Origin: an uncultured virus (IMG/VR IMGVR_UViG_3300022853_000024)
Taxonomy: Duplodnaviria; Heunggongvirae; Uroviricota; Caudoviricetes
DNA length: 20,000 nt
IMG/VR virus record: IMGVR_UViG_3300022853_000024
Direction: 5' to 3' (one strand)
Shown here: positions 2,914 through 19,487 of the stretch, in pieces
Position numbering within the stretch: position 1 is the first letter of the stretch
Layout: every line of letters starts with the position of its first letter
The notes under the pieces: model-generated
The model's database searches: none
Seen by the model: only the letters and a program-made list of their open reading frames with translations
Told to the model about the DNA's origin: nothing
Program-made: the position numbers and the translations under genes

Positions 2914-3546
2914 TTAAGTTGCTTGAGCGTCAACAACAATGTTGCCTGCGCCTACTGCCGCTTTAGTTGCCACACCAGCACTACCGTATGCAGTAAAGCC
3001 TATACTATCAATTCCTGTTAATTCGAATGTGTTAGTTGCTTTGTTTGCTACTGTGTATGCAGTTTCAAGGTTAAGCTCAACCATGCCAACTACGCCACGG
3101 ATAGATACTTTATCTCCGTTGCTGAAGCCGTGTCCAGTTGCTGTGATAACACATGGATCTGCCTGTGTTGCACCTGAAATAACTTTTTCAACTGCATCAG
3201 ATAAACCGTCAGCATCTCTAGTCCATACGTGTCTAGTTGCGCCTTCAAGTTGCATTTTTCTGTTGTACAGTTTAGTAACTTGTTTTGTAACACCGTCACT
3301 GTCAGTTACGTTAATGCAAAATTCGCCTGCGCCTAAAGCACCAGCACCTACACCACCGATTGACTTGTTTACAAGTGTACAAGTTTCTGTTTTTGATCCA
3401 TCAGTTACAATAAATTTGTTTGTTGATCTTTGTGACACAATATGTGATTCAGTAGTAATTTCTCCACCTGCCGCGAATTTAACCGCAGTTACTTGAAGTT
3501 TACCTGCTCCATCACCAATGTGTTTTTTGTTAATTGGTCTTCCCAT
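2914..3546 (-). CDS. Putative virion (head decoration/neck) protein with C-terminal FCCH-like beta domain, 210 aa
   Basis: AGGAGAAACAAAATG RBS; C-terminal ATQADPCVITATGHGFSNGDKVSIRGVVGMVELN...ATNTFEL resembles the phage domain often labelled 'ubiquitin-activating enzyme E1 FCCH'. Confidence 0.55.
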   Translation of the reverse strand: MGRPINKKHIGDGAGKLQVTAVKFAAGGEITTESHIVSQRSTNKFIVTDGSKTETCTLVNKSIGGVGAGALGAGEFCINVTDSDGVTKQVTKLYNRKMQLEGATRHVWTRDADGLSDAVEKVISGATQADPCVITATGHGFSNGDKVSIRGVVGMVELNLETAYTVANKATNTFELTGIDSIGFTAYGSAGVATKAAVGAGNIVVDAQAT

Positions 3547-3911: not shown

Positions 3912-4715
3912 TCAATCCAATTGACCAATCAAGTCTCTGGCTCCGTATGTTACTAAAAATTTTGCACCTGCTGATTTATACACTTTGGATATTTCAATCT
4001 GGTGTTGCAGTGTGGGCAATCCTTTGTATTCATCTCCCACTTGATACACTCCAACCGGAATGTAAGATCCTGCATTTATCATGCTTAAATTATGTAAACT
4101 GTGTTGTCCTGGTTTCAGCAACAAGTAATCTGCTTTTTGTTTTTTGTATTGATTGGCTGTGGCAATCATGCCCCAATCATTGTCAACAGGCAGTTGGTAT
4201 GTTCTGCTGGTGGTGGGTGTGCTGTCTGCTAGATCTCTAAAAGAACTGTAAAACACACTGCGGTATTTTACATATGCCATCACTTCACTGTGAGTTTCTG
4301 ATTTTAAATTTTGAACTGTGCGTTCTCCCATGTCTGAAGGAGCCAATATGTCTGCACCTGCAGATTTTAATTTCTTACCCAAATCAATCAACAGTGCTTC
4401 ACTGGTGTCTGGTTTGTCCATCACTCTACAATGCCCATCTGGTAAAGAGGCACACAAGCACACATCCACAATCAGTTGTATGTTGGGAAATTTTGTTTTT
4501 ATTTGATTTACAATTCTTTGATTAAAACTCCAATCAGGAGTCCAAGATTTATGTTCTGGTGTTATGAACAGCAAGAAACTGTCTACACCTTTGTCTATGT
4601 CTTTTTGAATTCTGTCTTCTATTAAGGATTCGGACCAACTGCTGTTATCAGCACCTAATCCAGCCGTTTCTGTTCTGCCTTTTTCGTTGACAAACAATGG
4701 CTGGATTAAGTCCAT
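3912..4715 (-). CDS. hemB: Delta-aminolevulinic acid dehydratase / porphobilinogen synthase, 267 aa
   Basis: Motifs in correct order: DLIQPLFV; Zn site DVCLCASLPDGHC; AGADILAPSDM; first Schiff-base Lys in AYVKYRSVFYSSFRD; RTYQL; second Lys in ADYLLLKP; YQVGDEY; AGAKFLVTY. Start placed at ATG 4715, just after the lipoprotein stop. Confidence 0.9.
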   Translation of the reverse strand: MDLIQPLFVNEKGRTETAGLGADNSSWSESLIEDRIQKDIDKGVDSFLLFITPEHKSWTPDWSFNQRIVNQIKTKFPNIQLIVDVCLCASLPDGHCRVMDKPDTSEALLIDLGKKLKSAGADILAPSDMGERTVQNLKSETHSEVMAYVKYRSVFYSSFRDLADSTPTTSRTYQLPVDNDWGMIATANQYKKQKADYLLLKPGQHSLHNLSMINAGSYIPVGVYQVGDEYKGLPTLQHQIEISKVYKSAGAKFLVTYGARDLIGQLD

Positions 4716-4719
4716 ATGA

Positions 4720-4923
4720 TTACTTCTCTTCTTTTTTAGGAAGTGCCGCACACTGTTCTTCGTCTGCTGGCAGACCAGTGTTTTTATCATAGATCCAAAC
4801 ATACGAATAAGTGATGTTGTCATCAGTCATTGAACATTTTTTTCCAAATGATACTCTTGGTTCTTTAATAGAACAAGCAGATACTATGAAGAAAGATAAT
4901 ATTATTATTGCAATACTTTTCAT
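4720..4923 (-). CDS. Small lipoprotein, 67 aa
   Basis: ATG 4923 with AAGGA RBS; MK + hydrophobic stretch + lipobox VSA-C17; two further Cys in the mature part. Confidence 0.8.
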   Translation of the reverse strand: MKSIAIIILSFFIVSACSIKEPRVSFGKKCSMTDDNITYSYVWIYDKNTGLPADEEQCAALPKKEEK

Positions 4924-9900: not shown

Positions 9901-11619
9901 CTATGTGTTGGAAGTTGGTGTTCCGCCACCTGGTGCTCCTGCTGGCGATGGTGCTTCCTCTTCTCCTGGAGCAGTTGGATCTTCTGTTGGCTCTGCCGCA
10001 TCTAAATCTGCTTGTATACCTGCTGTGCTGACTCCTGCACTTCTTAATTCAGTTGCTGAAGTGGTTGGTTTACCTGACATAGTTTCATCATTTTCTTCTC
10101 TCCACATTCTTTCGTTTTCTGCCATCTCTTCTGGGGATAATCCTAAGAATCTTGACAGAGCATAACGTTTGCTTACAAACGGCACTGTTGCTATTTGTGA
10201 GTATGTGGAAATTCTGTTGTTGTCTACTTCTGCTTGTCTGTAAGAAGCAAAGTTCATTGGCGGCTGAAACTTGATATCAAACATTGCTATATCAATATTC
10301 ACACCTTTTTCTAATAGATACCGTTTAAACTCTTGATTGAATTCGTCTGATACTAAATTTTGTAGTCTTTCACAGTATTTGTTAAATCTTAATTCTTGAA
10401 TGTATGCTGTTCCCACTCTACCATCGTTGAAACTGCTTTGAGAATCATCTGCACCTGTTGGCAAATATGAACTGGGAATTCTTAAACCTCTTAACAATTT
10501 GTTTGTGAAGTACTTCAAGTCATCAATTTCTCCTAGGTTTGTACCACCCGGTAATGTTTCTACTTTAGATCCTCTTCCTTCTGCTGTTTGCGGAAAGAAA
10601 TAGTCTTCATTAATCGATAGTGGATTGTATGCAGAGTCCACAACATTTGCTCCACCACCTGTGGATGAAGGAATACGTCTTTGATGGATTTCAGTCTTAA
10701 CTCGTTCCACAAATTGCATTGCCAAATGACTTGGCATATTACCTACATCGATGTAAAACACTCTTCTTTCAGGTGCTCTTTGTACTCTGTAGATTATGAT
10801 TGCGTCTTCTAATAATTCTTTTTGTTTGTAAACTTTAAAAATACTCTCCAACAGTGAATTACCAAATGGATAGTTGTTGTCCAGTCCTTCTGATAAACTT
10901 AAATGCACAACGTGTTCTGCATCAACAGAAATTTCTCTTTGTCCTGTGCCAAATCTTGTTCCTGGAGAGTCTTGATTCACACTTCCGCCAGTTGCTCCTC
11001 TTACTCCGCCAGTCAAATATCCTGAGCCGCCACCTGTTACATTGCCTGTTGTCTGATGAGGTGTTGTTGCCACAAGATTTTTAAAATTAAAGTTAATATC
11101 TTTTATAACATATTGCTCAGGAATTTTACCTGTGCTTTCGTTTACAATTATTTTAGTTACTTTTGATGGATCAACATGAAACATTTTCTTTGTTTCTGGA
11201 TCTCTAATAAAAAATGCATCACCATACTTGAACACATTACGCAGGATCTTAAACACACGTTTAGAAAAATCGTTCATTTTGCACCATTGGTGCAGATATT
11301 GTTCTATGATTTGTATTTCTGTGTTGGTTGCTTTCTGATTGTATTCAAATTTAAAAGGTGTGTTGTTTTGTGTGTTGTTTTGTGTGCAAAATTCTGCTAG
11401 GATATCCAATGCGGCATTCACTTCTGAATCCATATCCATCACATTGTATTGTCCGTAACGTTCAACTCTGTTAGGTGCACCGCTGTAAACATCTGGAAGA
11501 AATGATGAGTAATTTGTTTTGGCTGGTCCAGCCGTTCCACCTTTTCCACCCAATGGTGAATTCATTCCGCTTGTACCATTACCGAGTGGCACTTCTGTAA
11601 AATATTTTTTCCAACTCAT
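9901..11619 (-). CDS. gp20: Portal vertex protein (gp20-like), 572 aa
   Basis: LLEDAIIIYRVQRAPERRVFYIDVGNMP, EDYFFP, GRGSKVETLPGGTNLGEIDDLKYF, LRIPSSYL, ELRFNKY are hallmark gp20 motifs. Confidence 0.96.
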   Translation of the reverse strand: MSWKKYFTEVPLGNGTSGMNSPLGGKGGTAGPAKTNYSSFLPDVYSGAPNRVERYGQYNVMDMDSEVNAALDILAEFCTQNNTQNNTPFKFEYNQKATNTEIQIIEQYLHQWCKMNDFSKRVFKILRNVFKYGDAFFIRDPETKKMFHVDPSKVTKIIVNESTGKIPEQYVIKDINFNFKNLVATTPHQTTGNVTGGGSGYLTGGVRGATGGSVNQDSPGTRFGTGQREISVDAEHVVHLSLSEGLDNNYPFGNSLLESIFKVYKQKELLEDAIIIYRVQRAPERRVFYIDVGNMPSHLAMQFVERVKTEIHQRRIPSSTGGGANVVDSAYNPLSINEDYFFPQTAEGRGSKVETLPGGTNLGEIDDLKYFTNKLLRGLRIPSSYLPTGADDSQSSFNDGRVGTAYIQELRFNKYCERLQNLVSDEFNQEFKRYLLEKGVNIDIAMFDIKFQPPMNFASYRQAEVDNNRISTYSQIATVPFVSKRYALSRFLGLSPEEMAENERMWREENDETMSGKPTTSATELRSAGVSTAGIQADLDAAEPTEDPTAPGEEEAPSPAGAPGGGTPTSNT

Positions 11620-13769
11620 TATACTGTATCTGTCATTTCTGTTGTTGCTTGAGATGTTATTCTGCTGTAACGATTGTTATCACTCATTGCCATCAAAATT
11701 TGTTCCATAGTGTTATTTAACTGATCCAATTTATCTCCTGTTGTGGATGCGGATGCTGTTGTTGTTCCCATCATTCCACTTCTTAAACTTGTCATTGCCG
11801 TTCCTAAATTTTCTATACTGTTAGCATACATGTCTATTTTGCTTTTGTCAAGCTCATCTAGTGTTTTATTCAAGTTTTTGGCAAAGTTTTCTGATCCTCC
11901 ACCGAAAATCCTGCTCATAAAGCCACCAACAGTACCGACGGCACTGCCTGCTCCCATGGCAACCATTGCGCCTGACAGAGCCAAAGTGCCTTTGGCAACC
12001 TGTACTAAATTACCGCCATCCACTTCACCTACACTTTTTAATCCATCAGCAAACTTTGTTAATGCTCCGCCCATTAAGAAAGTTGCCGCGGCAACACCTG
12101 CTCCTATTGCCGTGATTGCCAATCCTAAATTCGCCGCACCTAGTAGAGTCGCTGGATTTGCCATTGCTGTCAAACCACTTGCTAATCCTTTTAATCCGCC
12201 ACCCATGCCGGCTAGTAAACCTCCACCGCCTGCACCAGTTTTTCCTAAAATAGATTTCGTTCCACCTCCCGGTCCGCCTCCTGTTAGATAACTTGAAACT
12301 CCTGTGACGGCTTTCTTGGCGGCAAATGCAGTCAATGCCGCCGCCGCTAGACCTACCGCAATGTATAGTCCTCCCATTGCCACTTTGCCAGTTGTTGACA
12401 ACTCATCGAACCAATCGTTAAATTTCGTTCCTAAATCATTTAATGTGGTTGCAATAAAAGATTTAGGACCAATTATGCTTGCCAAGCCACCTATAATAAT
12501 ATCAACTCCTTGTTGGAATGGAGTCAATAATTTTTGAAATTTTGAACGCAAGTTTTCACTGGCATTCTGAAATTGTTTTGCACCTTTAGTGCTTGCCGCT
12601 CTTGCTTCTTGTTCTGCTATGATGGCACTTGTACTTTGTCCTAAGAATTTTCTAAATTTTACAGAATCTGCCGCAACATTGAAAAATTCATTGCCCACAC
12701 CTAGTTGAGTAGCAATTAATTTTTTCTGACCTGCGTCCATGTTGGCAATGCTTTCACCGTTACGTGCCAGTGCTTGAATGAACTGATCACTTGCGCCAGG
12801 CACACCATCTCTCAATGCCGACACTGCTTCACGTACACCTTCCACAGCAAATATACCAACTTGTTCTCCACCTTCTGGAAATCCTTTTGCTAACAATCCT
12901 GTAACAGCACTCACCATTTCTGGTGCCGCCGCTTTGACCCTTACCATGGTTGCTTCTATTTCACTGTTTGAAATCAAACGCAACTCTCTAGCATCTGCCA
13001 CTGCTTGTAATTCATCTTTCACTTGATCTCTTTGCAATCCAGTCAATCTTGACAATTGGTCCAATCTCAATAGATATTCTTGCGAGCCTGCAACCAACTG
13101 TGAATTACTCATTGATTGAGATCTACCCAGAGTAGTCTGTAAGTCTAGATAATCAGCAAAGCCTTCTGTGATGTCTTCCATAGAAAATCCAAGACCTGCG
13201 ATTGTTTTTCTGAAATCACTCTGTAATAGTGATGTCATTATTGTGTTGAATCTTCTTGCACCTTCGTTTGCACTACCGCCAAAACCAGCAAGTGATGTGT
13301 TGGCACTCATTAATGCCTGGGCTAATCTTGTCATGTCTATTCCGGCGTCGCCTGCTATACGTCTGAAATCGCTGACTGTTTGTGTTGTGTTGGCTCCTAT
13401 CTCTGCCAAGTTTCTGAAAGTGTCAACGTTTTCAAATACTCTTGCCGCTAGGTCGGCTGTGAATTGTAAAAATACTTTGTTTAATCCTGTGGTGCTTTGT
13501 GATAGAACACCAAATCCACCAACCAATCCGTCTGCACCTTTGGTTAATGATTCAAAGCCGGCTCCTGCCGCACCTAAAACTTTTTTGAATACAACAACTG
13601 ATTTGCTGGTTTTCTTGGTTTCTTCTGTGAACTCACGTTGAGCACCACTGTTACTGCTACCGCCGCCAGACCCACCCAAAGCCTTCAGTATTTTTTTGGC
13701 AGTGTCTTCGCTGGCAATTCCCCCATTGCCATCTGTTTTTTCTAAAAGTTCTTCAATCGTCATTGCCAT
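11619..13769 (-). CDS. Tape-measure-like / tail length determinator protein, 716 aa
   Basis: Long Ala/Gly/Leu-rich helical protein with hydrophobic segments in the C-terminal half; adjacent to a hub/chaperone gene; stop overlaps portal start (TAATG). Confidence 0.65.
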   Translation of the reverse strand: MAMTIEELLEKTDGNGGIASEDTAKKILKALGGSGGGSSNSGAQREFTEETKKTSKSVVVFKKVLGAAGAGFESLTKGADGLVGGFGVLSQSTTGLNKVFLQFTADLAARVFENVDTFRNLAEIGANTTQTVSDFRRIAGDAGIDMTRLAQALMSANTSLAGFGGSANEGARRFNTIMTSLLQSDFRKTIAGLGFSMEDITEGFADYLDLQTTLGRSQSMSNSQLVAGSQEYLLRLDQLSRLTGLQRDQVKDELQAVADARELRLISNSEIEATMVRVKAAAPEMVSAVTGLLAKGFPEGGEQVGIFAVEGVREAVSALRDGVPGASDQFIQALARNGESIANMDAGQKKLIATQLGVGNEFFNVAADSVKFRKFLGQSTSAIIAEQEARAASTKGAKQFQNASENLRSKFQKLLTPFQQGVDIIIGGLASIIGPKSFIATTLNDLGTKFNDWFDELSTTGKVAMGGLYIAVGLAAAALTAFAAKKAVTGVSSYLTGGGPGGGTKSILGKTGAGGGGLLAGMGGGLKGLASGLTAMANPATLLGAANLGLAITAIGAGVAAATFLMGGALTKFADGLKSVGEVDGGNLVQVAKGTLALSGAMVAMGAGSAVGTVGGFMSRIFGGGSENFAKNLNKTLDELDKSKIDMYANSIENLGTAMTSLRSGMMGTTTASASTTGDKLDQLNNTMEQILMAMSDNNRYSRITSQATTEMTDTV

Positions 13770-13797: not shown

Positions 13798-13845
13798 TAT
13801 TTAATGCCAATCATTAAGTACGCACTTATCTATCATTACTAAATA
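13798..13845. promoter_or_regulatory. Divergent late promoters: TTAAATA (minus, 13798-13804) and TAAATA (plus, 13840-13845)
   Basis: TAAATA cores on opposite strands in the AT-rich gap between the tape-measure-like and hub genes; a further minus-strand ATAAATAC lies at 13882-13889. Confidence 0.55.
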
Positions 13846-13899
13846 TGTGTATATTAAGAATAACATAATTTAAGTTTTTTAGTATTTATGGAGAACAAA

Positions 13900-15093: not shown

Positions 15094-15663
15094 ATGCAAA
15101 TTTACACACAAATTGTGCGACCCCAAGAGCTGGATGAAGACGACCTCTGGATTCCCTGTCTTAAAACTGCCACCGTTGAACACTCTCCTGCAGATGCACA
15201 AGCACTGATCATCACCCACATCGAAGCCATCAATCATTATGCACACAGTCTGTCAGAACTGTTGGAACAAAAAGTGTATGCGGTGGGATCCAAGACTTAT
15301 AACCGCCTTGTGGCGGCGGGCTTCGCAGAAAATAATATTCATTGGCGACACACAGCCAACGATTTAAAACTGCGTTCCAAAAACACAGGCCCACTCACTT
15401 GGCTCCACGGAGACAAGTACGCCAGAGATTTTCGTGCCATACCAGAAGTTACTGCCATACAGACTTACGAATCGAAACCAGATCCTTCAGCCATCAAACA
15501 GATATTGAAATTGGAACCAGATGTTGTTCATGTGTATTCGGAATCAGTATTAAAAGAATTAGAGATTAGAAACTGGAGTCACACCAAGTTGAAACACGTT
15601 GCGTCAGCGGAACCAGATGTCAGTGTGTGGTTGGATTGTGAATCATTTGATCCTAATGTTTAA
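15094..15663 (+). CDS. hemD: Uroporphyrinogen-III synthase (HemD)-like protein, 189 aa
   Basis: HemD-like elements in order: WIPCLKT, ALIITHIEAI (cf. IFTSxNAV), VYAVGSKTYNRLVAAGF (cf. xAVGxxTAxxLxxxG), TANDL, LTWLHG, AIQTYES, VVHVYSESV. Shorter than cellular HemD. Confidence 0.6.
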   Translation: MQIYTQIVRPQELDEDDLWIPCLKTATVEHSPADAQALIITHIEAINHYAHSLSELLEQKVYAVGSKTYNRLVAAGFAENNIHWRHTANDLKLRSKNTGPLTWLHGDKYARDFRAIPEVTAIQTYESKPDPSAIKQILKLEPDVVHVYSESVLKELEIRNWSHTKLKHVASAEPDVSVWLDCESFDPNV

Positions 15664-16040
15664 GAACGACTCACGTCGTTCTGCTTTTCGCTTGTGCTCA
15701 AGCATTTAAGCAATTACATAACGAAGTTATGTTGTCATCATGCAGACAGTTGATCCATACTTCACCCAGTAACGGGAAAAGTATGTAGACATCATGCGAG
15801 ACTAGCCTGCCATTTTGTGAGAGGAACTTTTGTGCGGAAGCGGTAACCCGTCAACTCCCTATTCCAGACTTCATCAGTCACGGTCAACTGCGGCACCCTT
15901 CACAAACAAAGTGAGCAGTTGTGATGTTGTATCTTTTTCACAGAGCATCTTCTTTTATGCCTTTAGTAAGCACTTTCCTTGCAACTCAGGATTCACCATT
16001 ATGTTTCAAATGCATTTCCTGGATCTACGATCAGTTGTGT
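15663..16040 (-). ncRNA. Candidate large structured non-coding element (ncRNA or structured DNA) downstream of the GIY-YIG gene
   Basis: ~380 nt with no credible ORF, ~43% GC by hand count, and at least seven stems; terminal hairpin has a GNRA loop (GTGA) on the minus strand. Confidence 0.55.
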
Positions 16041-16042
16041 TG

Positions 16043-16477
16043 CTATATTGCCTTGTTGTAATTTTTAAGTTCTTCTTTTAGGATTCTTGAACCACCAACT
16101 CTTACATTGATGATACCGTTGTAGTATTCGTCGGATTCTAATACTCGTCTTTCGAATTGTTCCCGAGCTTCGAGATAACTCATTACGCCTCTAGTTTTGC
16201 AAATGTACAATATTTCTCTTGTAAACTTGTCTTCGCCTAATTCTGCCACGTCAGCATTCAGATGATCTGAGGAACCCCAATATTCTTTCCAGTCAGATTC
16301 AACTTTGCTTCTACGTTTGTTTATCCTGCCTTTAAGTGGCGGACGTGTCTTCTTGAATTTTGCTAATTTTTTACCCACATACCGTTTACCATTGGTTGTG
16401 TTTGTGATCAAATACACAAATCCTTCACAGTCTTCCGGCAATGTTTGAATGGGTTTACCCTGATAAGTCCATGGCAT
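16043..16477 (-). CDS. GIY-YIG family endonuclease (stand-alone catalytic domain), 144 aa
   Basis: GFVYLITNTTNGKRYVGKK (GIY...YIG variant), YWGSS, FTREIL, conserved Glu in YLEAREQ and YYN. Confidence 0.8.
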   Translation of the reverse strand: MPWTYQGKPIQTLPEDCEGFVYLITNTTNGKRYVGKKLAKFKKTRPPLKGRINKRRSKVESDWKEYWGSSDHLNADVAELGEDKFTREILYICKTRGVMSYLEAREQFERRVLESDEYYNGIINVRVGGSRILKEELKNYNKAI

Positions 16478-16484
16478 ATGGACA

Positions 16485-16490
16485 TACTTA
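16485..16490 (-). promoter_or_regulatory. Possible late promoter variant TAAGTA
   Basis: GTAAGTA 7 nt upstream of the GIY-YIG ATG, which lacks an RBS. Confidence 0.35.
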
Positions 16491-16494
16491 CTGA

Positions 16495-16713
16495 TTATTT
16501 TTTTCGCTGTTGCTGTTTGTGGATCTTGGACACTTTATATTGTTCTTCTAGCTCTTTACGTCTAAGACGTGCCAAAATTCTAATTTCTGCCAGTGCCAAT
16601 CTAGCGGCAACTTTTGTGGCAAGGCTTTGCCTCTTGGCAAACAACTCGTTTGCTTTAAAATACGCCATGTATGCTTGGGTCAGTTTGTCGTGAGTATCAT
16701 CTTGAATGGTCAT
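16495..16713 (-). CDS. Small basic protein, possibly histone H1-like (Hc1-type) DNA-binding protein, 72 aa
   Basis: ATG 16713 overlaps the end of gp46; YFKANELFAKRQSLATKVAARLALAEIRILARLRRKELEE resembles the Hc1 pattern. Confidence 0.5.
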   Translation of the reverse strand: MTIQDDTHDKLTQAYMAYFKANELFAKRQSLATKVAARLALAEIRILARLRRKELEEQYKVSKIHKQQQRKK

Positions 16714-18481
16714 TTGTTTCCACATCGTTGGCATATGCTGTGAAGCCGTTTTCTTTAACAACTCTAAGCACGTTGTTCACTCTGCCCATTAATTCATCTT
16801 TATGAGATATCAAAAATATGTTTTTGCCTGATTCTCTGCTCATTTTTTTTAGAATAGCCAAACTGCTTTCAACTCCTGCTGAATCCATACCAGAATCTAT
16901 CAATTCATCTAAAAACAACAAGTTAATTTTTTGATACAAGTTTTCCCATACATCTCTAAAAGCAAAACTTAAACCTAAAATTAATCTATTTCTTTCACCT
17001 CTACTCAGATTGTCAAAGTCTAGTTCTTGTCCCAGTTGAGTGATCTCCACACTTAAATCATTTTTAAATGTGACCAAGTGTGGAAGACCCAATTGATCCA
17101 AGTAGTGAGTTAACCTGTTGTTCAAAAAGGTTAAGTTTTGATCAATTATTTTTTTCCTTATGAAGGAATCTTTGTTTGTTAACAGTTTGTGTAAAAATTC
17201 TTGATGTTCTTTTAATTTTTGCAGTGTATTTGCTGTGTCCCAATCTATTTTTTGTACTGCTTGATTTTTTAATTCATCTATTTGATCTAGATATGGATTA
17301 GCATCTTCTTTTTTGTTAACAAGTGCTGTGTTGATTGATTCCACATATTGTCTGTGATCATATACTTCTTTTATGGTATCATAGTATGTGTCGGGTCTTT
17401 GATCCAAATCGCCCACTGCTTCGATGTCTTTTACAGTTTGTTCCAATTGTTGTGCTAATTCCATCACATAACTGTTGGATTCTCCATATTCTTCTTCCAA
17501 AGTTTTCTGCATTTGTTCTATTTTATCTTGAGGCAGATCCTGACCACAAGCATAACAAGTGGCTTTGTGATTAAGTTTTTCTAGATCATCATACAATTTT
17601 TTTGCTGTCTTATCTGCTTGTTCGATGGTCGATTCCAAACCAGCTCTGTCTTTTTGCAATTGTTTTAACGCATCGTTCAGTTTTGTCCAATCTTCAAATT
17701 TTTGATGTGCTTCTAATTCTTTATCAATGTCTACACTTTCTAACTCTTTTAAGTTTTTTTCTAATTTTTCTATGTCTGTGGTGTTCTGATTTTGCCAAGC
17801 ACTGCTTTTGTTGTTTAAACTGTGAATTGTTTCTTCTACTTTTTCATTGCTAATTTTTAAACCTTCTAAACGTGCTGTTTCCAGTGCTATGTCTTCTTTT
17901 GAACGTTTGATGTGTGTTTTTAAGATGTCTGCTTTCTCAGACAACAACTGAATTCCTAATAGTTGTTCAATTATTTCTTGTTGTTCATTGTTGTGTAAAC
18001 TTAAAAAAGGTTGAGTGTATGTGTTCAAAGCCACAATGTGTTTGAACATTTTTGGATTCATTCCAATCATTCTGTTTAGGTCTTCTTGTGTTTTACGTGA
18101 ATCGCCTTGACTGACATCTGATAATTCTTGCTCTTGATCGTCTATGTAATATTTCATTACATTAGGTTTTCTTCCACGCTCCACTCTGTAATTTACACCA
18201 TCTTTTTCAAATGCTATTGTGACCAACATAGCCTTGCCGTTGGTTTTGTTCACTAGGTTGTCTTTACGTATCTTGGTAAGTGCTTCACCATACAATGCGT
18301 AACTCAGTGCATTAACAATGGTGGTTTTACCTGTACCATTACGTGACCCTGCATCATCACCTCCCATGTCTAAGTTTTCACCCAACACCAATGTTAACAA
18401 TTTTTGTTGAAAGTCTATTGCTTGGGTTTGATTACCCACACTCATAAAGTTTTTTACAGTAAGTGTTTTAATCAGTATCAT
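16697..18481 (-). CDS. gp46: Recombination endonuclease ATPase subunit (gp46, Rad50/SbcC-like), 594 aa
   Basis: KNFMSVGN, Walker A NGTGKTT, coiled coil with CYAC zinc hook, signature LSRGE, Walker B LLFLDE, ISH. Confidence 0.95.
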   Translation of the reverse strand: MILIKTLTVKNFMSVGNQTQAIDFQQKLLTLVLGENLDMGGDDAGSRNGTGKTTIVNALSYALYGEALTKIRKDNLVNKTNGKAMLVTIAFEKDGVNYRVERGRKPNVMKYYIDDQEQELSDVSQGDSRKTQEDLNRMIGMNPKMFKHIVALNTYTQPFLSLHNNEQQEIIEQLLGIQLLSEKADILKTHIKRSKEDIALETARLEGLKISNEKVEETIHSLNNKSSAWQNQNTTDIEKLEKNLKELESVDIDKELEAHQKFEDWTKLNDALKQLQKDRAGLESTIEQADKTAKKLYDDLEKLNHKATCYACGQDLPQDKIEQMQKTLEEEYGESNSYVMELAQQLEQTVKDIEAVGDLDQRPDTYYDTIKEVYDHRQYVESINTALVNKKEDANPYLDQIDELKNQAVQKIDWDTANTLQKLKEHQEFLHKLLTNKDSFIRKKIIDQNLTFLNNRLTHYLDQLGLPHLVTFKNDLSVEITQLGQELDFDNLSRGERNRLILGLSFAFRDVWENLYQKINLLFLDELIDSGMDSAGVESSLAILKKMSRESGKNIFLISHKDELMGRVNNVLRVVKENGFTAYANDVETNDHSR

Positions 18482-19487
18482 TGTTTAAATCTCTATATAT
18501 TTTAAGCAAAACAGATTTATCAAATGCATCAGACTCAATTGTTTCAATTTCTTTAGAGACAATTTGATCCACACTTTCAAATTTTGTGATATCAAGTTCT
18601 GTGTTTATTTCTTCTTCTTGTTTGCTTGGGATTAATGTCATTTCTCTACAATTATATTCCTTCATAAAAGTCTCTTTGATATAACTGGCTTCTTCAAAAC
18701 TGATGTCTATGTCTAATGTAACTCGTAGATGCATCTTCTTTTTCATAATTTCTTTGGTTTTGTCCAACAGTGTGCTTAATTTTACATTTCTGTACTTGGG
18801 ACAATTATCCCAGTTGAAATAAACAGGCTCTGTGCCATGTTCTAATATCATCATGCCTCGGTCATCGTCATCGACATCTGCATAATTGTGTGGAAAAGGA
18901 TTGCCCAAATAATGAATATTGTTTTTGACCTGTCTTTTATGAAAGTGTCCAGAGAACACATACTCTTGTTTTTTGAAATCGCTCGCTCGTAACTCTCCTG
19001 TGTCAGGCATTTCCACCATTGCGTTCATAAAGAAGTTGGGTAATTCAAAGTGACCAAACATATATTTGCATTCCATGTTGCCAACTTTTTTCCATTCATT
19101 GTCTATTAACCACGGCACTAATATAGTGTCACCTATTTTTGTAATTTTGTTAACCATGGTAATTCCTGGAATAAATCTGCCAAATTCTACAGATTGTATA
19201 TCTCTGCTGTCTTTGTAATATAAATCATGATTGCCTGGAAAAAAATAAAAGTTATCAAATGCTTTTCCTAATTTTTCTAAACATCTTATGGAAGCATCCA
19301 TAGTGGTTATGTTCACACTGTTTCTGTTGTGATGCCAGTCACCACAAAATAATCCTGTTTCACATCCGTGTTTTTTTGCTAACTCGATATACCAATCAAC
19401 GAATTCCTCACAGTCATCGTTGTGTAATTTAGAATTGGATTTCAATCCGAAATGAATATCGGTGAAAACTGCTAATTTTTTGAACAA
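18468..19487 (-). CDS. gp47: Recombination endonuclease nuclease subunit (gp47, Mre11/SbcD-like), 339 aa
   Basis: Metallophosphoesterase motifs DIHFG, GDWHH, GNHD, GHFE, SGHFH; TTG start with AGGAG RBS; adjacent to gp46. Confidence 0.95.
   Translation of the reverse strand: MFKKLAVFTDIHFGLKSNSKLHNDDCEEFVDWYIELAKKHGCETGLFCGDWHHNRNSVNITTMDASIRCLEKLGKAFDNFYFFPGNHDLYYKDSRDIQSVEFGRFIPGITMVNKITKIGDTILVPWLIDNEWKKVGNMECKYMFGHFELPNFFMNAMVEMPDTGELRASDFKKQEYVFSGHFHKRQVKNNIHYLGNPFPHNYADVDDDDRGMMILEHGTEPVYFNWDNCPKYRNVKLSTLLDKTKEIMKKKMHLRVTLDIDISFEEASYIKETFMKEYNCREMTLIPSKQEEEINTELDITKFESVDQIVSKEIETIESDAFDKSVLLKIYRDLNNDTD

What the first reader, a model, noticed from the sequence alone, without database searches (positions are those of the whole stretch)
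15663..16477. Large structured non-coding element coupled to a minimal GIY-YIG nuclease
Seen: in a gene-dense genome, ~380 nt right after the GIY-YIG stop has no credible ORF and is ~43% GC by hand count (15661-16020) versus ~21% in the 13801-13880 intergenic stretch. Stems (plus coordinates): AGAACGAC/GTCGTTCT 15663-15682 (GTGA GNRA loop on minus), TGCTT/AAGCA 15682-15704, ACATAAC/GTTATGT 15716-15732, CATACTT..CCC/GGG..AAGTATG 15756-15785, an imperfect stem around 15822-15860, GACT/AGTC 15867-15879, CAACTGC/GCAGTTG 15885-15921 enclosing TCAC/GTGA, CAGGA/TCCTG 15987-16021. Known: Seg/I-TevI-type GIY-YIG homing endonucleases have an appended DNA-binding domain, which this 144-aa protein lacks; it instead has a basic insert (KKLAKFKKTRPPLKGRINKRRSK). 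Inference: nuclease and RNA may form a ribonucleoprotein (RNA-guided or RNA-regulated), or the element is a structured replication/packaging site nicked by the nuclease. I cannot match it to a known RNA class.
Basis: partly seen in the sequence, partly recalled or inferred. Interest (0 to 1): 0.85.

Follow-up and report, generated by a model that had tools for sequence, protein, structure and literature searches.

The report
Conserved pseudoknotted RNA beside phage nuclease
A roughly 330-380-base folded RNA of no known family sits directly after a small nuclease gene in a group of giant marine T4-like phages, and its shape is strongly preserved although its job is unknown.

Summary
The 379-nt gap 15664-16042 is non-coding and more conserved than both flanking genes. 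On 44 non-redundant homologues a 66-pair structure is 93.1% paired, against 38-46% in slid controls. 43 pairs change on both sides, and two pseudoknots covary. The RNA reads on the minus strand, the nuclease's sense: conserved G.U pairs, GNRA loops, and 170 G.U against 53 A.C cells. Rfam (three searches) and ARAGORN find nothing.

Wherever enough flank was held, a small nuclease gene precedes the RNA: 131 GIY-YIG and 7 an unrelated PD-(D/E)XK enzyme, none empty (138 usable loci; the two sets overlap). Three results argue against an RNA-guided complex:
- The nuclease fold is swapped in seven loci.
- Phage Melnitz carries a 74%-identical GIY-YIG, basic segment included, but no detectable RNA.
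- No guide-like segment was found.

Best reading: a new structured phage RNA made at the 3' end of the gp47-gp46-nuclease unit and acting on its own, function unknown. Transcription is only weakly shown, from unstranded metatranscriptome contigs. Strand and ends still need stranded reads.

The parts
15716..16043 (-). Core of the structured RNA (5' end near 16043, read 16043 to 15716 on the minus strand)
   Evidence: Conserved in 104 of 138 loci. On alignment A1, 93.1% of cells in a 66-pair structure are paired. No Rfam match.
15981..16043 (-). 5' domain closed by helix P1. GCAAC (16039-16043, overlapping the nuclease stop codon UAG) pairs with GUUGC (15981-15985). Inside lie hairpin GAUC/GAUC (16022-25 with 16029-32) and helix CAGGA/UCCUG (16017-21 with 15987-91).
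   Evidence: P1 is 100% paired, with one compensatory G-C to A-U change in 2 rows. AUAGCAAC is conserved even where the nuclease stop lies 10-30 nt upstream. The inner helices covary within and between groups by reading.
15957..15973 (-). Hairpin Pd (GUGCU/GGCAU) with a conserved U.G closing pair
   Evidence: U.G in 42 of 42 rows that have letters. The outer pair is A-U in 21 rows, G-C in 20.
15923..15949 (-). Hairpin Pf (GAUG/CAUC) with a near-invariant loop, CUCUGUGAAAAAGAUACAA
   Evidence: Pairs 135-160 and 136-159 change on both sides in 23 and 20 of 44 rows. The loop bases are invariant.
15885..15921 (-). Hairpin Pg (CAACUGC/GCAGUUG plus CAC/GUG). Its loop carries the 5' strand of pseudoknot PK1 (15900-15906).
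   Evidence: All 9 counted pairs change on both sides.
15814..15820 (-). 3' strand of pseudoknot PK1 (UCACAAA), pairing with 15900-15906 (UUUGUGA)
   Evidence: 7 pairs, 94.5% paired, 6 with changes on both sides, up to five pair types at one position.
15876..15881 (-). 5' strand of pseudoknot PK2 (GUGACU), pairing with 15843-15848 in the loop of Pi1
Evidence: 6 pairs, 100% paired in 44 rows, 4 pairs with changes on both sides.
15823..15865 (-). Helix Ph (GGAA 15862-65 with UUCC 15823-26) enclosing helix Pi1 (GGGA 15856-59 with UUCC 15836-39, conserved G.U). A variable hairpin is inserted here in relatives.
   Evidence: Ph is 99.4% paired and all 4 pairs covary. Pi1 is 100% paired, with G.U in 38 of 44 rows. 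The inserted hairpins carry GCAA or GAAA loops on the minus strand.
15790..15796 (-). First CAUGAUG motif (CATCATG on the + strand)
   Evidence: CAUGA is invariant in 44 rows. The paired motif also led to the more distant group C.
15757..15784 (-). Hairpin Pj (AUACUU..CCC/GGG..AAGUAU)
   Evidence: 95.1% paired. GAGA or GCAA loops on the minus strand in relatives.
15736..15756 (-). Near-invariant unpaired stretch GGAUCAACUGUCUGCAUGAUG, including the second CAUGAUG motif (15736-15742)
   Evidence: Invariant columns. Used as the search pattern.
15716..15732 (-). Hairpin H3 (ACAUAAC/GUUAUGU)
   Evidence: 94.6% paired, 4 of 6 pairs change on both sides.
15682..15704 (.). Hairpin H2 (UGCUU..GC-loop-GC..AAGCA). 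On the minus strand it has tandem G.A pairs and a GNRA loop in relatives. It is deleted in some relatives.
   Evidence: GUAA, GAAA and GUGA loops on the minus strand. Absent in L032, L030, L036 and L026.
15663..15682 (+). Hairpin H1 followed by a U-rich tail: an intrinsic terminator for the hemD-like gene on the + strand, and possibly also the 3' limit of the minus-strand RNA
   Evidence: Called terminator-like on the + strand. 6 of 7 pairs change on both sides.
16043..16477 (-). 144-aa minimal GIY-YIG nuclease gene, immediately 5' of the RNA
   Evidence: PF19835 E 3.6e-37. The model's nearest solved fold is the I-TevI catalytic domain (1LN0/1MK0, prob 0.92/0.87, E 0.23-0.32, weak). It is 77-94% identical across phages whose gp46 falls to 57%.
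15094..15663 (+). Convergent hemD-like gene; not part of the element
   Evidence: PF02602 E 3e-05, below the curated cut-off. Beside the RNA in only 28 of 73 usable metagenome loci.
16495..19487 (-). Upstream genes of the same strand: orf88 (16495-16761), gp46/Rad50-like (16697-18481), gp47/Mre11-like (18468-19487)
   Evidence: Synteny.

Best explanation
The gap encodes a structured RNA of a family not yet described. It is about 330 nt in this phage (16043 to about 15716), and up to about 380 nt if hairpins H2 and H1 belong to it. Distant relatives carry about 500 nt.

Shown: it reads on the minus strand, the same sense as gp47, gp46, orf88 and the small nuclease gene, and begins at the nuclease stop codon. 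Its fold has a 5' domain closed by helix P1, several hairpins, and a core held by two covarying pseudoknots (PK1, PK2). Stretches of near-invariant unpaired sequence run between them: two CAUGAUG motifs, GAAGUAUGG, UAGGGRGUU and GCUCUGWGAAAAAG.

Inferred: it is made as the 3' end of the gp47-gp46-nuclease transcript, or from a start at the end of the nuclease gene. It then acts as a stable RNA in its own right, and the invariant unpaired motifs are contact sites for a protein or RNA partner still to be found. The nuclease next to it is a conserved, vertically inherited gene of the recombination and DNA-degradation module. Its adjacency reflects a fixed operon position more probably than RNA guidance.
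For: Conservation
- The element is 84-100% identical in loci where the hemD-like protein is only 61% identical.
- Four-fold sites of GIY-YIG and gp46 between the window and groups B and C differ at 0.54-0.65 and 0.59-0.61. That is near saturation, so the RNA's invariant blocks reflect selection.

Structure
- On 44 representatives below 98.5% identity, 93.1% of cells pair against 38-46% for slid partners.
- 43 of 66 pairs change on both sides, against 10-20 in the slid controls.
- The covariation score is 0.443 against 0.06-0.10, and 0 of 500 shuffles reach it.
- PK1 and PK2 are 94.5% and 100% paired.

Strand
- In my helix count on the minus strand there are 170 G.U cells and 53 A.C cells.
- G.U pairs are conserved in Pd (42 of 42) and Pi1 (38 of 44).
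- GNRA loops (GAGA, GCAA, GAAA, GUAA, GUGA) appear on the minus strand.
- RNAalifold gives -130.8 on minus against -116.2 on plus (45 sequences), and -204.5 against -195.6 for group C (15 sequences).

Not coding, not a known family
- for coding.
- Rfam found nothing at gathering or E-value thresholds for groups A, B and C.
- ARAGORN found nothing.

Expression
- Contigs from 4 metatranscriptome runs of 4 studies cover the element.
- One contig spans 15692-16296, joining the RNA to the nuclease 3' end.
- One 301-nt contig, 15746-16046, has depth 20.5 against 3.2 for the hemD-like contig.

Independence from the nuclease
- The slot holds a PD-(D/E)XK gene in 7 usable loci.
- Melnitz has the GIY-YIG at 74% identity without the RNA.
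Against: - No strand-specific or end-mapping data exist. The contigs carry no strand and could include DNA carry-over.
- The only terminator-like site at the element's end is oriented for the + strand, and no minus-strand terminator was called.
- No promoter was identified.
- A nuclease gene sits directly upstream in 138 of 138 usable loci, even though the downstream neighbour varies. That is stronger than simple synteny predicts, and this reading does not explain it.
- I drew the structure from the same sequences it was counted on, and the rows are related. Both the shuffle and the slide controls therefore flatter it.
- The 3' third, between PK1 and H3, is not resolved.
- The function is inferred from form alone.
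Confidence: 0.55

Rival explanations
1. The RNA and the adjacent small nuclease work together. The RNA would guide, activate, tether or restrain a nuclease that has no DNA-binding domain of its own, as an RNP analogous to omega-RNA or HEARO systems.
For: - A nuclease gene lies directly upstream in 138 of 138 usable RNA-selected loci: 69+62 GIY-YIG and 4+3 PD-(D/E)XK, none empty (the two sets overlap).
- 68 of 68 usable GIY-selected loci carry the RNA.
- The downstream neighbour is not conserved: hemD-like in 28, other in 45.
- The GIY-YIG lacks an appended binding domain. It has an invariant basic segment that the model leaves disordered, with pLDDT under 50 at residues 43-47 and 51-59.
- In the L026 lineage the nuclease and RNA moved together. 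Four-fold divergence is 0.24 for GIY against 0.59 for gp46.
Against: - Two unrelated nuclease folds precede the same RNA.
- Melnitz keeps a 74%-identical GIY-YIG, basic segment included, with no RNA found by blastn or by two nhmmer profiles. The control worked: the A1 profile finds 15 of 15 group C sequences.
- The proteins are single-domain and 140-180 aa.
- No hypervariable guide-like end was seen; the variable parts are covarying hairpins and an A/U-rich linker.
- There are no transposon ends, and no copies elsewhere in the 57.7-kb record.
Confidence: 0.2
2. The element is a cis-acting 3' untranslated structure of the gp47-gp46-nuclease mRNA. It would protect the transcript from 3' exonucleases or tune expression of a potentially toxic nuclease, and would not act in trans.
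For: - It starts at or within 30 nt of the nuclease stop codon in all groups.
- One RNA-library contig bridges the nuclease 3' end and the element (15692-16296).
- No separate promoter was found.
Against: - 330-500 nt with two pseudoknots and long invariant unpaired motifs is far more than mRNA protection needs.
- Helix P1 overlaps the stop codon only in the window's group. Elsewhere the stop lies upstream.
- The same element follows two unrelated genes.
Confidence: 0.15
3. The nuclease genes are free-standing homing endonucleases that settled next to a highly conserved RNA gene because it offers an invariant cleavage target. From memory, SegB does this in the T4 tRNA cluster. Adjacency would then be parasitic, not functional.
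For: - The protein matches the SegE GIY-YIG family (PF19835).
- Its nearest solved fold is the I-TevI catalytic domain (weak E).
- Two unrelated nuclease families occupy one insertion point.
- The L026 lineage shows lateral exchange of the nuclease-RNA block.
Against: - No empty site and no decayed copy in 138 usable loci.
- Synonymous divergence of GIY-YIG equals that of gp46 between groups while its protein stays about 82% identical. That indicates long vertical descent under purifying selection, not recent spread.
- There is no DNA-binding domain to give site specificity.
Confidence: 0.1
4. It is a DNA-level structure (origin, packaging or nicking site), or a very divergent member of a known RNA class such as tmRNA, RNase P RNA or a group I intron.
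For: - The size (about 350-380 nt) resembles tmRNA or RNase P RNA.
- GIY-YIG genes are common in phage group I introns (recalled).
- The element lies at the junction of two convergent gene blocks.
Against: - Rfam found nothing even at E up to 10 on a 1.3-kb slice, nor for groups B and C.
- ARAGORN found no tmRNA or tRNA.
- There is no exon on the minus strand downstream: the hemD-like gene runs the other way up to 15663.
- The pseudoknot topology found here is not the group I P3/P7 pattern (topology recalled).
- Strand-specific G.U pairs and GNRA loops argue for RNA rather than duplex or single-stranded DNA.
Confidence: 0.05

Closest known systems
HEARO RNA / IscB omega-RNA (nuclease-associated structured RNA; recalled, in Rfam)
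   Same: A structured RNA of a few hundred nucleotides with a pseudoknot, always found beside a nuclease gene.
   Different: No Rfam match. The RNA lies 3' of the gene, not 5'. The proteins are 140-180-aa single-domain GIY-YIG or PD-(D/E)XK enzymes, not RuvC/HNH. No transposon ends and no guide segment were seen.
GOLLD and ROOL: large orphan structured RNAs common in phages and prophages (recalled; for 10.1101/2024.12.08.627333 I saw only the search listing and the start of the abstract)
   Same: Phage-borne, several hundred nucleotides, many covarying helices and pseudoknots, function unknown.
   Different: No sequence or structure match (Rfam calls). Smaller. Linked to a nuclease gene rather than to tRNA genes. 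Confined so far to marine T4-like giant phages: 0 hits to the RNA's 28-nt pattern in one genome for each of 185,579 bacterial and archaeal species.
Seg-type free-standing GIY-YIG homing endonucleases of T4 (SegE; SegB in the tRNA cluster; recalled)
   Same: The nuclease matches the SegE GIY-YIG domain and sits next to a conserved RNA gene in a T4-like phage.
   Different: It lacks the C-terminal DNA-binding part (144 aa, domain 3-123). It is present in every usable locus, with saturated synonymous divergence. That is unlike a sporadic selfish gene.
I-TevI catalytic domain (PDB 1LN0, 1MK0)
   Same: Best structural match of the predicted model: prob 0.92 and 0.87, TM normalised by target 0.62 and 0.59.
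   Different: The match is weak (E 0.23-0.32, 21-25% identity) and the model is moderate (mean pLDDT 73.3). There is no intron around the gene and no linker or DNA-binding domain.
Intrinsic terminator between convergent genes
   Same: H1 (15663-15682) is a G+C-rich hairpin with a U-rich tail on the + strand, right after the hemD-like stop.
   Different: It accounts for only about 20 of the 379 nt.

Membership tests
Any Rfam 15 family (including tmRNA, RNase P RNA, group I/II introns, riboswitches, HEARO, GOLLD, ROOL, IMES) | Score at or above the family's gathering threshold with its covariance model | tested here: not met
   0 matches in the whole window. At E up to 10 on 15400-16700 only chance-level rows appeared: P8 at 19.3 bits against 60. 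Nothing relevant in 7 loci of groups A, B and C.
tmRNA | tRNA-like domain with acceptor and T arm, plus a tag reading frame | tested here: not met
   ARAGORN found 0 genes in the window and in 8 related loci.
Group I intron carrying a GIY-YIG gene | Flanking exons on the same strand that join into one gene | tested here: not met
   On the minus strand the element is followed only by the antisense of the hemD-like gene. orf88 and the nuclease have their own stops.
Structured non-coding RNA (generic) | Compensatory base changes that keep helices, beyond controls | tested here: met
   43 of 66 pairs change on both sides. 93.1% of cells pair against 38-46% slid. 0 of 500 shuffles reach the score.
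Structured non-coding RNA (generic) | Transcribed, with defined strand and ends | tested here: inconclusive
   Contigs of 4 RNA libraries cover it, but without strand or ends. The strand is inferred from G.U pairs and GNRA loops only.
RNA-guided nuclease system (omega-RNA / CRISPR-like) | A variable guide segment next to a conserved scaffold | tested here: not met
   Variable parts are covarying hairpins, insertions and an A/U-rich linker between H3 and H2. No candidate target was searched for.
RNA-guided nuclease system (omega-RNA / CRISPR-like) | Protein and RNA always co-occur | tested here: inconclusive
   The RNA has an upstream nuclease in 138 of 138 usable loci. The nuclease fold is swapped in 7 of them, and Melnitz has the GIY-YIG without the RNA.
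RNA-guided nuclease system (omega-RNA / CRISPR-like) | Physical binding of protein to RNA | not testable with these tools
   The complex predictor takes proteins and small ligands only.
SegE-type GIY-YIG domain (PF19835) | Profile match above the curated cut-off | tested here: met
   127.8 bits against a cut-off of 25, residues 3-123 on profile positions 1-123 of 123.
Homing endonuclease (functional sense) | Sporadic presence or absence among close relatives; appended DNA-binding domain | tested here: not met
   0 empty sites in 138 usable loci. The protein ends about 20 residues after the catalytic domain.
T4 endonuclease II (DenA)-like minimal GIY-YIG | Sequence or fold likeness to the solved T4 enzyme | tested here: not met
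   phmmer against PDB chains gave 0 matches at E up to 1. The T4 enzyme is not among the listed Foldseek rows. Only the position next to nrdB in Melnitz recalls T4, and the T4 gene order is from memory.

The most novel reading that the evidence does not exclude
The RNA is the nucleic-acid-recognising or regulating subunit of a minimal nuclease RNP. A 140-180-aa GIY-YIG or PD-(D/E)XK catalytic module with no DNA-binding domain would be recruited or gated by a 330-500-nt pseudoknotted RNA encoded immediately 3' of it. This would be a phage-borne RNA-directed nuclease unrelated to Cas, IscB or TnpB. The strict adjacency across two nuclease folds would then mean that the RNA, not the protein, is the constant partner.
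Probability: 0.12. Interest if true: 0.95.

Novelty: new variant of a known kind. Interest (0 to 1): 0.62.

Why it matters
Large structured RNAs with complex folds are rare. Almost every one studied has turned out to be a ribozyme, an RNP scaffold or a self-assembling particle. This one is well suited to follow-up:
- It is abundant in marine viral and metagenome assemblies.
- Its core with two pseudoknots is well defined.
- It comes in four sequence groups, three of them alignable (A, B, D), which gives natural covariation.
- It sits in giant T4-like phages that also carry heme-pathway genes.
- Its unbroken linkage to a small nuclease gene, across a swap of nuclease fold, is unexplained. That makes a concrete question testable: does a phage use a structured RNA together with a minimal nuclease, or is this a separate stable RNA of the recombination module?

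Tried and rejected
Readings of the RNA
- Group I intron: an R-like UUCACAGA and a GACUA/UAGUC 'P7' seen by eye did not covary, and no exons exist.
- tmRNA or T-arm reading of GCGG-loop-CCGC-CAACUCC: that hairpin (Pi2) never covaries. Its loop instead pairs with 15876-81 as PK2.
- Hammerhead core CUGAUGA at 15870-76: present only in the window's sequence type.
- Cobalamin-like GGUGAAUCC: confined to the window's group, and no Rfam hit.
- A 22-codon ORF running from the first AUGAUG to past the second: it stops after two codons in group B.
- Hairpins around each CAUGAUG, CAUG/CAUG pairing and AUGG/CUAU pairing: all invariant or inconsistent, so left unresolved.

The nuclease
- DenA-like reading of the GIY-YIG: not supported by PDB sequence or fold searches.

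Searches that led nowhere
- A loose pattern scan returned mostly unrelated DNA; only 19 of 121 loci held the element. It did reveal the PD-(D/E)XK group.
- blastn against 50,697 phage records found only the nuclease gene of four Melnitz records. Megablast of the whole window found nothing.
- The RNA pattern has 0 hits in one genome for each of 185,579 bacterial and archaeal species.
- Literature searches gave no description of this RNA. The 8,495 candidate RNAs predicted from IMG/VR in PMC10690425 may include it. I saw passages of the text, but the two zip supplements and one spreadsheet could not be searched.

Reads and single-sequence folding
- Laid metatranscriptome contigs give no strand, start or end. 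Parts without cover mean nothing.
- Single-sequence folding z-scores were unremarkable.
Full report
**Setting.** The window comes from an uncultured marine T4-like phage.
- It encodes a gp20 portal, gp23 capsid protein, gp21 protease, a baseplate protein, gp46/gp47 (Rad50/Mre11-like), a HemB and a hemD-like protein.
- The nearest held record is a 57.7-kb fragment that CheckV rates 16% complete.
- Contigs carrying the same locus reach 200 kb.
- The capsid protein is closest, at 65-69%, to those of giant phages such as PA5oct.

**The observation.** The stretch 15664-16042 lies between two convergent genes: the hemD-like ORF (15094-15663, +) and a 144-aa GIY-YIG ORF (16043-16477, -).
- The only sizeable ORF in the gap stays open in 3 of 44 homologues.
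- Folding the single sequence is unremarkable, with z -1.6 and -1.8. On its own the sequence proves nothing.

**Conservation.** I used the two flanking proteins to fetch 138 IMG/VR loci.
- blastn and an nhmmer profile find the element in 104 of the 138.
- It stays about 84% identical in loci where the hemD-like protein is only 61% identical.
- In a 34-sequence alignment it is more conserved than the ends of both flanking genes.
- Four groups emerged:
  - A: window-like.
  - B: about 68% identical, with no hemD-like neighbour.
  - C: about 500 nt, found through two CAUGAUG motifs 58-59 nt apart. The A1 profile later recognised 15 of 15 group C sequences.
  - D: see "Link to the nuclease" below.
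- Between the window and groups B and C, four-fold degenerate sites of GIY-YIG (0.54-0.65 different) and gp46 (0.59-0.61) are near saturation. The invariant blocks of the RNA therefore reflect selection.

**Sequences used for the structure.** Of 240 nhmmer hits, 213 had full flanks, 73 were distinct, and 44 representatives below 98.5% identity were kept. Group C was left out of this alignment. L001, identical to the window, was replaced by the window reference. These 44 were aligned on the minus strand as A1.

**Structure.** A first hand-drawn structure gave 90.8% paired cells. A scan for further stacks showed two things. The hairpin GCGG/CCGC never covaries.

With that second pseudoknot and a 5' closing helix, the 66-pair structure performs as follows:

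| Measure | Structure | Partners slid by 1-3 columns |
|---|---|---|
| Cells paired | 93.1% | 38-46% |
| Pairs changed on both sides | 43 of 66 | 10-20 |
| Covariation score | 0.443 | 0.06-0.10 |

None of 500 shuffles reaches the observed percentage paired, the number of pairs or cells changed on both sides, or the covariation score. The count of further pair types is no better than shuffled (388 of 500).
- PK1 (15900-06 with 15814-20) shows up to five pair types at one position.
- PK2 (15876-81 with 15843-48) pairs in 44 of 44 rows.

Caveats: I derived the structure from these same related sequences. Several peripheral helices are misaligned between groups. The stretch between PK1 and H3, which holds the two CAUGAUG motifs, is unresolved.

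**Strand.** The RNA reads on the minus strand.
- My helix count has 170 G.U cells against 53 A.C cells.
- G.U pairs are conserved in Pd (42 of 42) and Pi1 (38 of 44).
- Hairpin loops on this strand are GNRA: GAGA, GCAA, GAAA, GUAA, GUGA.
- RNAalifold favours it: -130.8 against -116.2, with L072 and L001 dropped, and -204.5 against -195.6 for group C.
- One hairpin (H3) has G..A loops on the plus strand, which I regard as chance.
- H1 is a plus-strand intrinsic terminator for the hemD-like gene. No minus-strand terminator was called, so the 3' end is open.

**Identity.**
- Rfam 15 gives nothing for the window, for a 1.3-kb slice at E up to 10, or for seven loci of groups A-C.
- ARAGORN finds nothing.
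- No homologue is seen in 50,697 phage records beyond the nuclease gene of phage Melnitz.
- The RNA's 28-nt pattern has 0 hits in one genome for each of 185,579 bacterial and archaeal species.
- Three literature searches found no description.
- A catalogue of 8,495 unnamed candidates from IMG/VR (PMC10690425) could contain it. I read passages only, and its large supplements could not be searched.

**Link to the nuclease.** I selected loci by a 28-nt RNA pattern, independent of the protein.

| Set | Stretches | Usable (at least 900 nt upstream) | GIY-YIG upstream | Other nuclease upstream | None |
|---|---|---|---|---|---|
| Metagenomes | 91 | 65 | 62 | 3 | 0 |

- The two sets share contigs and are not independent.
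- The other nuclease is a 180-aa ORF matching PF24608, a phage PD-(D/E)XK endonuclease (E 4.5e-28). This is group D.
- The downstream neighbour varies: hemD-like in 28, other in 45, and 18 loci too short to tell.
- Conversely, 68 of 68 GIY-selected loci with at least 450 nt downstream hold the RNA; 12 of 80 were too short.

Three results argue against an obligate complex.
- The fold is swapped in group D.
- Melnitz, a complete 141.5-kb genome, has a GIY-YIG 74% identical (100 of 135 residues), including the basic segment. No RNA is found there by blastn or by two profiles.
- The basic segment lies inside the Pfam domain and is invariant in 14 of 14 homologues.

The GIY-YIG model (pLDDT 73.3) is nearest the I-TevI catalytic domain, weakly.

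Equal synonymous divergence of GIY-YIG and gp46, with about 82% against about 60% protein identity, points to vertical descent under strong constraint. The L026 lineage is an exception: there the nuclease and RNA were exchanged together.

**Expression.** Thirteen RNA-labelled runs hold part of the 2-kb stretch. In four laid runs from four studies, contigs cover the element.
- One contig spans 15692-16296.
- One 301-nt contig, 15746-16046, has depth 20.5 against 3.2 for the hemD-like contig.
- These contigs show neither strand nor ends, and DNA carry-over is possible.

**Verdict.** This is a real structured RNA of an undescribed family, on the nuclease's strand. It most likely acts as a stable RNA in its own right at the end of the recombination-gene unit. 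Its unbroken linkage to a small nuclease remains the most interesting unexplained feature. It keeps an RNA-nuclease partnership alive at perhaps one chance in five to eight.

Noticed in passing
L207:1817-2359 (-) and the same slot in L208, L270, L271, L283, L295, L401, L405, L451: In one lineage the GIY-YIG gene before the RNA is replaced by a 180-aa PD-(D/E)XK endonuclease (PF24608; phrog_244, named there as a RusA-like resolvase). This is a non-homologous swap at the same position.
   Followed up: partly
window 3912-4823 (-) and 15094-15663 (+): A HemB (ALAD, PF00490, E 8.7e-43) and a weak hemD-like gene (PF02602, E 3e-05, below the cut-off) sit among structural genes.
   Followed up: no
L025, L026, L029 (IMG/VR loci): Mosaic lineage. 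The GIY-YIG (89% identity; four-fold divergence 0.24) and the RNA are window-like, while gp46 (72%; 0.59) and the hemD-like protein (42%) are distant. The nuclease-RNA block was exchanged laterally. These loci also carry an extra hairpin after H1.
   Followed up: partly
L139 (Melnitz MZ577097.1, record 30449-30889): The Melnitz homologue of the GIY-YIG is annotated as hypothetical. It lies two genes from the ribonucleotide reductase small subunit. From memory this recalls the nrdB-denA arrangement of T4. No fold or sequence support for a DenA relationship was found.
   Followed up: partly
window 16495-16761 (-): An 88-aa lysine/arginine-rich ORF starts with TTG, 65 nt inside the end of gp46, and ends 17 nt before the nuclease gene. 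Only its first 50 or so residues are conserved in distant groups, and it has no family match.
   Followed up: no
window 2914-3546 (-): A 210-aa ORF matches the ubiquitin-activating-enzyme E1 FCCH domain (PF16190, E 3e-11) and a phage major tail protein family (phrog_584). This is an odd pairing.
   Followed up: no
window 11619-13769 (-): A 716-aa ORF next to the portal gene has no Pfam or PHROG match at the thresholds used.
   Followed up: no
window 15736-15742 and 15790-15796, with their flanks: The two CAUGAUG motifs sit in two similar units of about 28 nt (AUGG .. AUCU.RCAUGAUG), each following the 3' strand of a helix. This looks like an internal duplication. Its pairing could not be settled.
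   Followed up: partly
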